Shown piece by piece: positions 34,038-38,939 of a stretch of DNA of 64,000 nt (position 1 is its first letter; each line of letters opens with the position of its first letter). The stretch covers positions 704,001 to 768,000 of the forward strand of contig CM000153.2 of assembly GCA_000004695.1 (NCBI GenBank), written 5' to 3'. A program made the translations under genes and the position numbers. A model generated the notes under the pieces. It was not told the DNA's origin. It was given only the letters and a program-made list of their open reading frames with translations, and searched no databases. Source of the stretch: Dictyostelium discoideum. Its lineage: Eukaryota.

Positions 34038-37000
34038 TTAATTTATTAAAATATTTTTAGTATTAAATTTTGACCTTAATTTAAAAGATATAAAAAATAA
34101 ATAAATAAAATAAAAAATGATTGAAAATGAAAAGAGAGTTAAAGTTAAACCTTGATTAAAAGGAGAAAGTGAATTAAGCAGTGATGAGTTTGCTAAAATT
34201 AAAACTATTGATTGCATTAAATTGATAATATTAATAGAATGTCTTAATTTAATATTTTTAATTGGACCAATTAAAAAGAATAGAGTTGAATAAAAAAATT
34301 CAATTGGTAATACAATTTCAAAGAAAATACTTGAATTGAAAATTAATGAAATTGATAATCCACTAAAAAGTAATGATTTTATAATAATAATTATATCCCA
34401 CCATTTATTACCAAATTTAAAATTATTATAATTTGAAATGAAATTTGAAATGGAATTTTTAATTTTAAATTCTTCTTTTAGTGATTGTGGTGGTAGAGGT
34501 GGAGGAGTTGTTTTCTTAGTAGTAATAGTAGTAGCAAAATTAAAAATTATCATTATTAAAATCAATAATATTGTTAAAATTATTAAAAATAAAGAAATAA
34601 TTGAATACCAAGGAAAAATTGAATGAGAATAAGAAATTGAGAAATCAACCATTAAATAATAATTATTTACAACTTTTTTAAAAAGTAATAATGAGAATGA
34701 ATTAAATAGTATTGGTGTTAAAAGTAATAAAAACAATGTCCATATTGTTGATTTTAAATTATAAATTTTAATATTATCTTTTTTGTTTTTTATAATATTT
34801 TTTAAATATCTTGGTTGATCACCACTGAATTTATAATTATGAAATTTTATTAAGATATTTATTGTAATATCAGAATAACCAATTAAAAATAATGAAATTA
34901 TAATTAAAAATGAAATTAAACATTTAATTAAATAATTCATACCTTTAAAATAACAAATACCATCCAATGCATCTATTGAACCTCTAAATAATGGTAAAAT
35001 ATAAATTCCTTTAAAATAGAATAATAAAACCGAATTTACTTGAAAATAAATTAAAAGATATCCTATTGGAGTTTTAAATGCATTATATTTTATAATTGAT
35101 AAAATTAAACCATAAATTAAAAAGAAGAATCCAATTGGTATTAATAAAAATGGTTTAAACATTGAACAACATTGAATACCATTTTTTGATTTAATCAATT
35201 CATTACCATTACTACTACTACTACTATCACTATTAAAAGTACAACTAAAACAAAGATTACCAATTGATAAAGAAGATGAACAAGTATTATTTTGTAAACA
35301 CATTTCAAATGGACATTCTTCAATATATTCAACATCTTGATTAACTAAATAATAACCTTGATTTATAAAAACTTCACCTTCTATGCAAAGTAAAGAATTT
35401 GAATTACATTTTATACATTCATTTTTAGATTTACTAAAACTTTCACCATCTAGACAATAAATACATGTACCAATTTCATTATAATATTGATATGGTAAAC
35501 AACCACTAACTGAAACATTAAAAATTTGATTTTCAACCGTAATTGTATAGATATCATTTAATTCACCAGTAAATTCAATTATAACAATACCATAACCAGA
35601 ATAAACTTTACTTTGATAAATTGTAGTAATATTTGATTTTAAATATAAAACATTAAATAATAAAAGACCATTCTCAACACTATAAATACTATCATAGTAA
35701 TCTAAAATTTTATAATTAATTATAGTTTCAATTCCAGAATAAACTGAAAAATTTGATATTAAAATTTCATTTTGAAAAGAAGCAAAATTACTACCATAAG
35801 GTGAATAATTTCCTTCAAATATATTTGTTGATAATATTTTTGAAGAATTTGTTGAAAATGGGAAATTTGTTGTAAAAATTGAACCACCTTGATTTAAAGC
35901 ACGATTAAATTTAATTATATTATTTTTAAATTCATTTTTTAAATTTGATGAAAATGTATCAATACAAGAACCATTAAAACCAATAAAATAAAATAAACCA
36001 AATGATGCAATATTTGATGAAAAATTTGAATTTAAAATTTGAAAATAATTATTTTGATTATTATTATTATTAAAATATAAAAATGAACCATTACCATTAA
36101 AAAATATATTTAAATTAATATTACAATTTTCAAATAATAATGAACTATTAAAAGAATTAAATAGACCTAATGAATTAGTACCACCATTATTTGATGTTAT
36201 ATTTGAATTTGTAAATGATAAAATTGAATTATTAAAATAAAATAATCTTTTATTTAAACTACCAATAAGTGAATTTTCATTAACTATTGCATTATTAATT
36301 GTTACATTTGAATTTTGAAAATAAAAAATACCCTCCATATCAATTGAATTACTATTAACATTTAAACCATTAAAATTTATTATACAATTTACAAAATAAA
36401 ATACAACATCTCTTATTGGTTTAAAATAATTATCATTATTATTATTATTTAAAATAAATATTTGATTTATATAATTTTTTGATAATTCTGTATTTTCTAA
36501 TTGAATTATTGAATTTATTGAATAAAATGAACTTTGCATAAATGTATTTTCAAATAAATAAAAATTATTAATTAAAATTATTGAATTAAAAAAGTTAAAT
36601 AAATAAGTTGGTGGATTATTATTATTATTAAATTTTAAATTTATAATATTAATTTTAATTTCATTTCCCATAAAGAAAGCACCTGTATTATTTTGAATTA
36701 TATTTTCATTTAAAATAATATTTGAATTTAATACAATTCTAAAAATTAAATCAAAATTATTCTCTTGAAATGTTGATGAATTAATATTTACTCTTGATGA
36801 TCTTAAATCAATTAATGAACTTGTTGAAAATTTATTAAATGATGAACCAAAATTATTTTGAAATTTTGATTTAGATACATCAATTGAACTATTTACAATT
36901 TTAAAACAATTATTTTCACATTGACATCTATAAATTGATATAGAATCTAATAGAATCATTGAATTCAATCCATAAAGTATTGGATTTTTAAATGATGTAA

Positions 37001-38939: not shown

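What the first reader, a model, noticed from the sequence alone, without database searches (positions are those of the whole stretch)
34038..38939. 1633-aa Asn-rich beta-helix-like ectodomain fused to a multi-pass (about 7-9 TM) C-terminal domain
The protein has a signal peptide and about 1250 aa of degenerate N-x-[IV]-x-N/S repeats, typical of right-handed beta-helix adhesins, including an uninterrupted poly-N48. A Cys-rich furin/EGF-like stalk follows, and then a block of at least 7 hydrophobic helices. An adhesin ectodomain on a GPCR-like membrane anchor is an unusual combination, and I cannot assign the family.
Basis: partly seen in the sequence, partly recalled or inferred. Interest (0 to 1): 0.5.

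Follow-up and report, generated by a model that had tools for sequence, protein, structure and literature searches.

The report
Orphan beta-helix surface protein, nine-pass anchor
This is an intact Dictyostelium discoideum gene for a large surface-type protein, a long beta-helix rod on a cysteine-knotted stalk and a nine-helix membrane domain, from a small uncharacterised social-amoeba family that is not a GPCR and whose membrane domain matches no solved structure.

Summary
The ORF is real: minus strand 34038-38939, 1633 aa. It is identical at DNA level in a second D. discoideum assembly and collinear with its paralogues. The window is D. discoideum chromosome 4, DDB_G0283443 to DDB_G0283477.

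- The poly-N run is 53 residues, not 48.
- The quoted N-x-[IV]-x-N/S motif is no commoner than in shuffles.
- The membrane block has nine helices, N-terminus outside and C-terminus inside.

A scan of 1.84 billion representative proteins found only 23 relatives. Every one that could be named is a dictyostelid 'hypothetical' or 'Transmembrane protein', for example DDB_G0272102.

The beta-helix assignment rests on homology, not on a model of this protein's ectodomain. Homologues hit Pfam Beta_helix and Chlam_PMP. A leave-one-out family profile scores this ectodomain at 415 bits. Its segments match one another in several registers.

Best reading: a recognition or adhesion receptor family with a variable rod on a conserved orphan nine-helix module. 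The function is inferred, not shown.

The parts
34038..38939 (-). Complete coding sequence, 1633 codons plus stop. Single exon.
   Evidence: ORF list and translation. Identical in a second assembly. Collinear with paralogues.
38874..38939 (-). Signal-peptide-like N-terminus, residues 1 to about 22, MKARILLFLSIFIIISFFFSKT.
   Evidence: Hydropathy peak of 2.19. Most full-length homologues start with a similar hydrophobic segment. No dedicated signal-peptide predictor was run.
38721..38798 (-). Beta-helix N-terminal cap motif, residues 48-73, IFISEKHGSDKFGNGSIINPF.
   Evidence: Conserved across the family. A profile of this region hits the N-terminus of the beta-helix lacto-N-biosidase 7v6i at E 3.9e-4, and a 'parallel beta-helix repeat protein' (9rx2) at E 0.45.
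38394..38552 (-). Poly-Asn run of 53 residues (130-182), encoded by an (AAT)n array.
   Evidence: It is the only window-specific insertion against paralogues, which carry short N-runs at the same loop. Its length is identical in the second assembly.
35760..38393 (-). Repetitive solenoid region assigned as a right-handed parallel beta-helix, residues 183-1060.
   Evidence: A leave-one-out family profile scores 414.6 bits while 200 shuffles all score below 0. Segments match each other in several registers, probability up to 92%. Homologue regions with Pfam Beta_helix hits map to residues 533-682 and 788-886.
35874..35921 (-). Single Pmp-type motif, residues 1007-1022, NIIKFNRALNQGGSIF.
   Evidence: It aligns with the Chlam_PMP hit of P0011. 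The family profile hits Rhombotarget A (9cdu) over this region at E 1.8e-4. It is the only GG[ASG][ILVF] motif in the protein.
35505..35759 (-). Non-repetitive linker domain, residues 1061-1145, probably beta-rich.
   Evidence: No profile similarity to any rung segment. Its last residues are beta-strands in the model. The fold was not determined.
35166..35504 (-). Cysteine-rich stalk, residues 1146-1258, with 13 conserved Cys, ending in KNGIQCC just before TM1.
   Evidence: Cys conservation of 17/17 to 21/21. The model shows a stack of short beta-hairpins at pLDDT 87-96. Weak DUF7630 and Ephrin_rec_like hits in homologues map here.
34041..35165 (-). Nine-helix membrane domain, residues 1259-1633. 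Approximate helices: TM1 1263-1283, TM2 1291-1305, TM3 1336-1355, TM4 1396-1418, TM5 1442-1474, TM6 1513-1531, TM7 1536-1557, TM8 1563-1583, TM9 1593-1620. N-terminus outside, C-terminus inside, with a 13-aa tail.
   Evidence: No Pfam match. No significant match to solved structures.
34935..35024 (-). Conserved extended extracellular loop between TM2 and TM3, residues 1306-1335, (I)LPLFRxSIDxxDGxC, including the invariant Cys1329.
   Evidence: F1318 and C1329 are 20/20, R1319 17/20, D1323 18/20. The loop is non-helical in the model. With 13 Cys in the stalk and 1 here, a stalk-to-loop disulfide is inferred, not shown.

Best explanation
The gene encodes a member of a small, dictyostelid-restricted, uncharacterised family of very large membrane glycoprotein-type proteins.

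From the N-terminus the protein has:
- a signal peptide;
- a right-handed parallel beta-helix rod of about 1000 aa, with a canonical N-cap and a poly-N loop;
- a short non-repetitive linker domain;
- a stalk held by about 13 conserved cysteines;
- a nine-helix membrane domain, N-terminus outside and C-terminus inside, with only a 13-aa cytosolic tail.

Shown here: the ORF, the homology, the domain order, the nine-helix topology, and the absence of similarity to GPCRs or to any solved membrane fold.

Inferred: the rod projects from the cell surface, or into the lumen of an endocytic compartment, and acts as a binding surface. The likely ligands are glycans or particles, such as bacterial prey, substratum, extracellular matrix or other cells. 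Paralogues would carry diversified binding surfaces. The disulfide-locked stalk, probably cross-linked to the conserved TM2-TM3 loop, would seat the rod rigidly on the nine-helix module. That module would be the conserved working part, for signalling, partner binding or sorting, and not a passive anchor.
For: Gene and family:
- The ORF is intact and reproducible.
- The window is D. discoideum chromosome 4.
- Only 23 relatives turned up among 1.84 billion representatives. All ten that were looked up are unnamed proteins: nine from dictyostelids and one from a metagenome.
- The full-length alignment has invariant positions from the N-cap to TM9.

Beta-helix:
- Pfam Beta_helix scores 50.5 bits (cut-off 25.9) in homologue P0017. 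Chlam_PMP scores 32 bits (cut-off 20.6) in P0022.
- The leave-one-out profile scores 414.6 bits against below 0 for 200 shuffles.
- The rod segments repeat internally.
- PDB profile hits are to beta-helix proteins.
- Invariant ectodomain residues are Asn, Gly and Ser, which suits a structural role. There is no conserved acidic or basic cluster.

Membrane module:
- The model has pLDDT 82 and pTM 0.81, with 9 long helices.
- The charge distribution obeys the positive-inside rule.
- Polar residues are conserved in or near the membrane: Q1300, R1319, D1323, K1339, N1413, D1432, N1573.
- Regional identity to 12 homologues is 40% for the stalk and 32.5% for the membrane domain, against 22% for the helix. 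This is the pattern expected of a variable binding domain on a conserved module.
Against: - No experiment or expression data bear on function.
- The window protein itself hits no Pfam family, so the beta-helix call rests on homology.
- The cytosolic tail is 13 aa and the loops carry no recognisable signalling domain, so how a signal would be passed on is unknown.
- N-glycosylation sequons are not enriched: 33 observed against 39 +/- 5 expected.
- Surface localisation is assumed from topology only.
Confidence: 0.55

Rival explanations
1. It is an adhesion-type G-protein-coupled receptor: a seven-helix GPCR core with two extra helices, carrying a beta-helix ectodomain.
For: It has a large ectodomain, a Cys-rich stalk and a multi-pass domain, as class B2, C and F GPCRs do. 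A census of amoebozoan GPCRs lists 'PbH1, parallel beta-helix repeats' among the domains drawn on its receptor trees (PMC10445921).
Against: - There are nine helices with the C-terminus inside.
- No GPCR Pfam family matches the protein at E<=1, or 12 homologues at E<=0.1.
- Foldseek hits to GPCRs have E of 2.9 or worse and TM-score at most 0.21.
- The C-terminal tail is only 13 aa.
Confidence: 0.05
2. It is a membrane-tethered carbohydrate-active enzyme or polysaccharide-handling machine. The pectin-lyase-fold rod would cleave or bind a polysaccharide, such as bacterial wall, cellulose or slime sheath, and the nine-helix domain would translocate or hold the substrate.
For: Many right-handed beta-helices are glycosidases or lyases. 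The N-cap profile hits the beta-helix glycosidase lacto-N-biosidase 7v6i. Polar residues are conserved within the membrane domain.
Against: The 7v6i match covers only the 32-residue cap. Invariant and near-invariant ectodomain positions are almost all Asn, Gly, Ser, Thr, Pro or Ala, with D1080 the only acidic one. No glycoside hydrolase or lyase Pfam family is hit in 13 members.
Confidence: 0.15
3. It is an ion channel or transporter with a giant sensory ectodomain, in the manner of polycystin-1. The conserved extended loop between TM2 and TM3 and the polar membrane residues would form a permeation path.
Confidence: 0.1
4. It is not an independent functional gene. It would be either a recent pseudogene or the 3' part of a longer gene fused to the upstream RING/TRAF-thioredoxin gene, as an automated gene caller proposed (2013-aa product).
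For: The gene call in GCA_054883475.1 spans both ORFs. The exact 1633-aa and 1667-aa proteins are absent from the 15-billion-protein collection. No hit above 46% identity was returned.
Against: - A 4.9-kb open frame in DNA of about 19% G+C cannot persist by chance.
- The ORF is collinear with its paralogues from signal peptide to last helix.
- The upstream gene ends with its own stop. About 195 nt of A/T-rich spacer with a length-variable poly-A separates it from the ATG.
- A cytosolic RING/thioredoxin domain ahead of a signal peptide makes no topological sense.
- Most full-length homologues start at or close to the signal peptide.
Confidence: 0.05

Closest known systems
DDB_G0272102 (UniProt Q55A59, 'Transmembrane protein') and its dictyostelid paralogues and orthologues. 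These come from D. discoideum strains, D. dimigraforme, D. firmibasis, Tieghemostelium lacteum and Synstelium polycarpum.
   Same: They are collinear over the whole length: signal peptide, GNGT..NP cap, repetitive rod, Pmp-type motif, 13-Cys stalk, KNGIxCC, nine helices and the FKWWD motif. Identity is 28-31% overall and 39-53% in the stalk and membrane domain for Dictyostelium paralogues.
   Different: None of them is characterised. The window protein is a divergent paralogue, with no hit above 46% identity. It alone carries the 53-residue poly-N insertion.
SadA, the D. discoideum substrate-adhesion protein (Fey et al. 2002, PMC2173991).
   Same: Same organism and same layout on paper: signal peptide, Cys-rich extracellular repeats, nine predicted transmembrane helices with the N-terminus outside.
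   Different: - SadA is 952 aa and has tenascin-type EGF repeats but no beta-helix.
- SadA has a functional cytoplasmic tail that binds cytoskeletal partners (PMC9197732). The tail here is 13 aa.
- None of the 23 phmmer hits is 952 aa long, the length reported for SadA.
- No EGF Pfam hit was found.
- A direct alignment with SadA could not be run.
Chlamydial polymorphic membrane proteins (autotransporter beta-helix adhesins) and bacterial Pmp-repeat proteins such as Rhombotarget A (PDB 9cdu).
   Same: All have a long right-handed beta-helix displayed on a cell surface. The N.A...GG(A/S/V)(I/V)(F/Y) motif is shared. The family profile hits 9cdu at E 1.8e-4, and Chlam_PMP is hit in homologues.
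   Different: Only one GGxI motif is present and FxxN is not enriched. The anchor is an alpha-helical nine-pass domain in a eukaryotic membrane, not a beta-barrel or a rhombosortase-type tail.
Adhesion, class C and Frizzled GPCRs, and polycystin-1 or fibrocystin (large ectodomain on a multi-pass or single-pass anchor; PbH1 repeats in fibrocystin). This comparison is from general knowledge.
   Same: The design principle is shared: a large modular ectodomain, a Cys-rich juxtamembrane element and a polytopic membrane domain.
   Different: There is no sequence or fold similarity of the membrane domain to GPCRs or polycystins. No GAIN/GPS, PLAT or REJ domain was detected.

Membership tests
G-protein-coupled receptors (any class) | Seven transmembrane helices, N-terminus outside and C-terminus inside | tested here: not met
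   Nine helices by family hydropathy, by the AlphaFold model and by charge bias.
G-protein-coupled receptors (any class) | Sequence match to a GPCR profile (7tm_1/2/3, Frizzled, Dicty_CAR, Lung_7-TM_R, GpcrRhopsn4 and others) | tested here: not met
   No Pfam families at E<=1 for the window protein. No GPCR family among 13 members at E<=0.1.
G-protein-coupled receptors (any class) | Helix bundle superposable on solved GPCRs | tested here: not met
G-protein-coupled receptors (any class) | Coupling to heterotrimeric G proteins | not testable with these tools
   Needs experiments.
Right-handed parallel beta-helix (pectin-lyase fold; Pfam Beta_helix PF13229 / PbH1) | Match to the Beta_helix profile | tested here: inconclusive
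   The window protein has no hit. Homologues P0017 (50.5 bits, cut-off 25.9) and P0013 (E 9.8e-4) do hit. Those regions align to window residues 788-886 and 533-682. The window ectodomain scores 414.6 bits against the family profile.
Right-handed parallel beta-helix (pectin-lyase fold; Pfam Beta_helix PF13229 / PbH1) | Tandem rung repeats along the domain | tested here: met
   Segments 185-420, 421-650, 651-880 and 881-1060 match one another in several shifted registers, with probability up to 92% and E about 1e-6. The rung-like pattern is enriched 5-fold.
Right-handed parallel beta-helix (pectin-lyase fold; Pfam Beta_helix PF13229 / PbH1) | N-terminal cap motif (Y-[VI]-s..G.D...G....P-[FWY]..[IL]) preceding the first rung | tested here: met
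   Residues 48-68 carry it. The cap profile hits the N-terminus of the beta-helix enzyme 7v6i at E 3.9e-4, and 9rx2, a 'parallel beta-helix repeat protein'.
Right-handed parallel beta-helix (pectin-lyase fold; Pfam Beta_helix PF13229 / PbH1) | Three-dimensional beta-solenoid fold | not tested
Chlamydial Pmp / autotransporter adhesins | Multiple GGA[ILV] and FxxN tetrapeptide repeats | tested here: not met
   There is one GGSI motif, at residues 1018-1021. FxxN occurs 17 times against 16.9 expected.
Chlamydial Pmp / autotransporter adhesins | C-terminal autotransporter beta-barrel | tested here: not met
   The C-terminus is a nine-helix alpha-helical domain.
SadA-type nine-pass adhesion proteins of Dictyostelium | Signal peptide plus nine transmembrane helices with an extracellular N-terminal domain | tested here: met
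   The SadA description is from PMC2173991.
SadA-type nine-pass adhesion proteins of Dictyostelium | Tenascin/integrin-type EGF-like repeats (six-Cys consensus) | tested here: not met
   No EGF family appears in Pfam scans of this protein or of 12 homologues. The nearest are Ephrin_rec_like at E 0.022 and DUF7630 below cut-off.
SadA-type nine-pass adhesion proteins of Dictyostelium | Detectable sequence homology of the membrane domain to SadA | tested here: inconclusive
   A phmmer search with residues 1130-1633 returned 23 proteins, none 952 aa long, the length reported for SadA. The SadA sequence could not be fetched for a direct or profile comparison.
TM9SF / Phg1 nine-pass proteins | Match to the EMP70 profile | tested here: not met
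   No Pfam hit.
Dictyostelid beta-helix / nine-helix family (DDB_G0272102-like; unnamed) | Full-length collinear homology, including the N-cap, the 13-Cys stalk, KNGIxCC, the LPLFRxSID loop and the FKWWD motif | tested here: met

The most novel reading that the evidence does not exclude
The nine-helix module could be a previously unrecognised class of receptor or transducer domain, with no solved or curated relative. In social amoebae it would be hard-wired, through a disulfide-locked stalk, to a rapidly diversifying beta-helix glycan-binding rod. The family would then be a paralogue set of pattern-recognition or adhesion receptors, for telling bacterial prey apart, sensing the matrix, or recognising cells during aggregation. 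A weak collinear match in one non-dictyostelid metagenome protein (P0022) leaves open a wider protist distribution.
Probability: 0.15. Interest if true: 0.7.

Novelty: new variant of a known kind. Interest (0 to 1): 0.4.

Why it matters
Dictyostelium has no integrins. Its known adhesion and particle-recognition proteins (SibA, SadA, Phg1) do not explain how it binds the range of surfaces and prey that it does.

A family of very large surface-type proteins, each with a diversifying beta-helix rod on a conserved nine-helix module of unknown fold, is a plausible and untested pool of such receptors. In this organism it is easy to knock out and tag.

The membrane module is also a clean example of a polytopic fold with no solved or curated relative. 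The practical gains here are a corrected gene model, separate from the upstream RING/thioredoxin gene, and a family assignment for an ORF that had none.

Tried and rejected
- The word-indexed protein search (search for homologous proteins) returned nothing three times: with residues 185-1633, with residues 1130-1633, and with an 8-sequence alignment. Family members are in that collection. The candidate list was probably swamped by low-complexity words, so these are not evidence of absence.
- An exact look-up of the 1633-aa and 1667-aa proteins found neither.
- AlphaFold on the single sequence of the C-terminal part was useless, with pLDDT 43. Only the run with the alignment was usable.
- The AlphaFold-database fold libraries were not available. 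Comparison with predicted structures, including SadA and Q55A59, was therefore impossible.
- A phmmer search of the protein against PDB sequences found nothing.
- A literature search for neighbouring DDB_G identifiers, DDB_G0272102, DUF7630, Chlam_PMP plus Dictyostelium, and pectin-lyase fold plus Dictyostelium found nothing relevant.
- Simple residue autocorrelation gave no clear rung period.
- No paralogue lies in the window.
- The neighbouring genes (GGDEF cyclase, GCN5-like, kinase, trehalase, UBR1-like, ankyrin) give no functional clue.
- Rejected readings: GPCR, TM9SF, autotransporter, and fusion with the upstream gene. The reasons are in the rival explanations and the membership tests.
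Full report
**Observation**

The minus strand carries one uninterrupted ORF. Its stop codon is at 34038-34040, and the longest in-frame ATG is at 39041 (1667 aa). The first 34 codons of that version read through a poly-A tract. In an independent D. discoideum assembly the tract has a different length, so that ATG is out of frame there, while the 4902 nt from 38939 to 34038 are identical base for base.

The protein is 17% Asn, 13% Ile and 11% Ser. It has a hydrophobic N-terminal segment and 28 Cys, with a cluster at residues 1147-1258.

Two details of the finding are wrong:
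- The uninterrupted Asn run is 53 residues (130-182), not 48. A T48 homopolymer lies just upstream of the start codon.
- The motif N-x-[ILVF]-x-[NS] is no more frequent than in shuffled sequence, 13 against 16.6 +/- 3.8.

**Source and gene model**

Three intronless neighbours match D. discoideum AX4 proteins exactly: DDB_G0283443 (SET domain), DDB_G0283473 (trehalase) and DDB_G0283477 (ankyrin). The window is therefore chromosome 4 of D. discoideum.

The exact protein is not in the 15-billion-protein collection. In assembly GCA_054883475.1 the gene caller joined this ORF to the upstream RING/TRAF-thioredoxin gene as a 2013-aa product. I regard that as an artefact, for four reasons:
- The upstream gene has its own stop.
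- About 195 nt of A/T-rich spacer separates the two.
- Most full-length homologues begin at or close to the signal peptide.
- The ORF has no insertion or deletion of 8 aa or more against seven Dictyostelium paralogues, other than the poly-N tract.

I could not establish the dictyBase identifier of this gene. I also cannot explain why no near-identical protein appeared in the representative search.

**Family**

A phmmer search with residues 1130-1633 against 1.84 billion cluster representatives returned only 23 proteins. The full-length ones are 1159-1941 aa long, and the match lies in their C-terminal part.

The ten I could name are all 'hypothetical protein' or 'Transmembrane protein'. They come from D. 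discoideum strains (including DDB_G0272102 = Q55A59), D. dimigraforme, D. firmibasis, Tieghemostelium lacteum and Synstelium polycarpum, plus one metagenome contig.

A full-length alignment with 12 of them is collinear from the N-terminal cap to the last helix. Identity is 28-31% to Dictyostelium paralogues and 19-22% to the more distant genera. The window protein is a divergent paralogue, with no hit above 46% identity.

**Ectodomain**

The window protein itself hits no Pfam or PDB sequence. The beta-helix assignment is therefore by homology and by internal evidence:
1. Homologue P0017 hits Pfam Beta_helix at 50.5 bits (cut-off 25.9) and P0013 at E 9.8e-4. P0022 hits Chlam_PMP at 32 bits (cut-off 20.6) and P0011 hits it weakly. 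These regions map to window residues 788-886, 533-682 and 1007-1022.
2. A profile of the ectodomains of the 12 homologues, built without the window protein, scores the window ectodomain at 414.6 bits over its whole length. All 200 composition-preserving shuffles score below zero. The similarity is therefore not a composition effect.
3. Profile-profile comparison of segments 185-420, 421-650, 651-880 and 881-1060 gives matches in several shifted registers, with probability up to 92% and E about 1e-6. Segment 1061-1145 matches none of them. So residues 185-1060 form a solenoid of repeated units, followed by a distinct linker domain.
4. The N-terminal motif IFISEKHGSDKFGNGSIINPF is conserved. As a profile it hits the N-terminus of the beta-helix enzyme lacto-N-biosidase 7v6i at E 3.9e-4, and a 'parallel beta-helix repeat protein' (9rx2) at E 0.45.
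5. The whole-family profile hits Rhombotarget A (9cdu) over the N.A...GG.IY region at E 1.8e-4.
6. A rung-like pattern is enriched five-fold.

The poly-N tract sits at a loop where the paralogues have short N-runs. No three-dimensional model of the ectodomain was made.

**Stalk**

Residues 1146-1258 hold 13 Cys conserved in 17/17 to 21/21 sequences. In the alignment-based AlphaFold model they form a stack of short beta-hairpins at pLDDT 87-96.

No EGF or furin family matches. The nearest are DUF7630, below cut-off in three homologues, and Ephrin_rec_like at E 0.022 in one.

A fourteenth invariant Cys, Cys1329, lies in the extracellular TM2-TM3 loop. With an odd number of Cys in the stalk, I infer a stalk-to-loop disulfide. 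This is not shown.

**Membrane domain**

Family-averaged hydropathy shows nine peaks. The model of residues 1130-1633 has pLDDT 82 and pTM 0.81, built from 22 sequences. It has nine long helices, with three extra features:
- TM2 is short and is followed by an extended, highly conserved segment, (I)LPLFRxSIDxxDGxC.
- A beta-hairpin follows TM4.
- A cytosolic helix precedes the conserved FKWWD motif at TM6.

With the ectodomain outside, the predicted cytosolic loops carry 21.2 Lys+Arg on average, against 6.6 in the outside loops. This fits nine helices with the C-terminus inside. The tail is only 13 aa.

**What it most likely does**

Regional identity to the 12 homologues is 40% for the stalk, 32.5% for the membrane domain, 31% for the cap, 22% for the helix and 21% for the linker.

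Invariant ectodomain residues are Asn, Gly and Ser. These are structural residues of the kind that form Asn ladders and turns. There is no conserved acidic or basic cluster that would mark a catalytic site. The membrane domain, in contrast, keeps polar residues in or next to the bilayer: Q1300, R1319, D1323, K1339, N1413, D1432 and N1573.

This pattern is what one expects of a family of binding proteins. The exposed rod diversifies, and the stalk and membrane module do a conserved job. A mere anchor would need neither nine helices nor invariant polar residues.

I therefore favour a recognition or adhesion receptor, with glycans or particles as ligands. It would be comparable in design to SadA, which has EGF repeats on nine helices and is needed for substrate adhesion and phagocytosis (PMC2173991, PMC9197732), and to bacterial beta-helix adhesins. 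Everything beyond the architecture is inference. The rivals are a tethered carbohydrate-active enzyme, a channel or transporter with a sensory ectodomain, a GPCR, and a gene-model artefact. Each is weighed in its own section.

**Comparison and novelty**

The protein belongs to an unnamed dictyostelid family. It is not a member of the GPCRs, the chlamydial Pmp autotransporters (one GGxI motif, no beta-barrel), TM9SF or, on current evidence, the SadA family.

The parts of the ectodomain are known kinds. The nine-helix module has no curated or solved relative. One metagenome protein from outside the named dictyostelids (P0022) shares the Pmp-type rod and the stalk. It shows a weak collinear match to TM5-TM9, 5.8 bits. 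A wider distribution is possible but unproven.

I rate this a new variant of a known kind: a beta-helix surface protein on an orphan polytopic module. The interest is moderate. The family is already visible in public databases as hypothetical proteins, and nothing here shows an unexpected mechanism.

Noticed in passing
window 39135-40500 (-): The upstream neighbour encodes a RING/TRAF-type zinc-finger protein with a thioredoxin-like C-terminal exon (GVPCFVTYKNGEKI) and an (ATTT)n-rich intron at about 39265-39330. An automated annotation of assembly GCA_054883475.1 fuses it to the beta-helix gene as a 2013-aa product, which looks like an artefact.
   Followed up: partly
window 38961-39008: A 48-nt homopolymer (T on the + strand, A on the gene strand) lies 22 nt upstream of the start codon. 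Its length differs between the two D. discoideum assemblies, which moves the upstream ATG at 39041 in and out of frame.
   Followed up: yes
window 11640-13205 (-): This ORF has a strong GGDEF diguanylate-cyclase domain (E 2.6e-30), which is unusual for a eukaryote. It is presumably the known Dictyostelium c-di-GMP synthase gene.
   Followed up: no
window 33091-33534 (+): A 147-aa ORF with a long poly-N run and no Pfam match lies just downstream of the gene, on the opposite strand. It is called as a gene in the other assembly.
   Followed up: no
window 38375-38617 (-), alternative frame: An 80-aa 'poly-Ile' ORF is simply the (AAT)n array of the poly-N tract read in another frame. It is not a gene.
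   Followed up: yes
window 23119-24357 (-), 46118-48964 (+), 49547-56773 (+): Other neighbours are a GCN5-like acetyltransferase with a bromodomain, a protein-kinase fragment (probably one exon of a larger gene), and a 2408-aa UBR1-type N-recognin. None is related to the finding.
   Followed up: no
window 34038-38939 (-); representative-library search and protein collection look-up: No protein more than 46% identical to this ORF was returned, although the ORF is part of a called 2013-aa gene product in a public assembly. The word-indexed search found nothing at all in three attempts. I have no explanation beyond low-complexity swamping or a gap in the libraries.
   Followed up: partly
protein P0003 (D. 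dimigraforme, 1941 aa): This homologue carries an extra N-terminal extension of about 340 aa ahead of its signal-like segment. It may be another gene-fusion artefact of the same kind.
   Followed up: no
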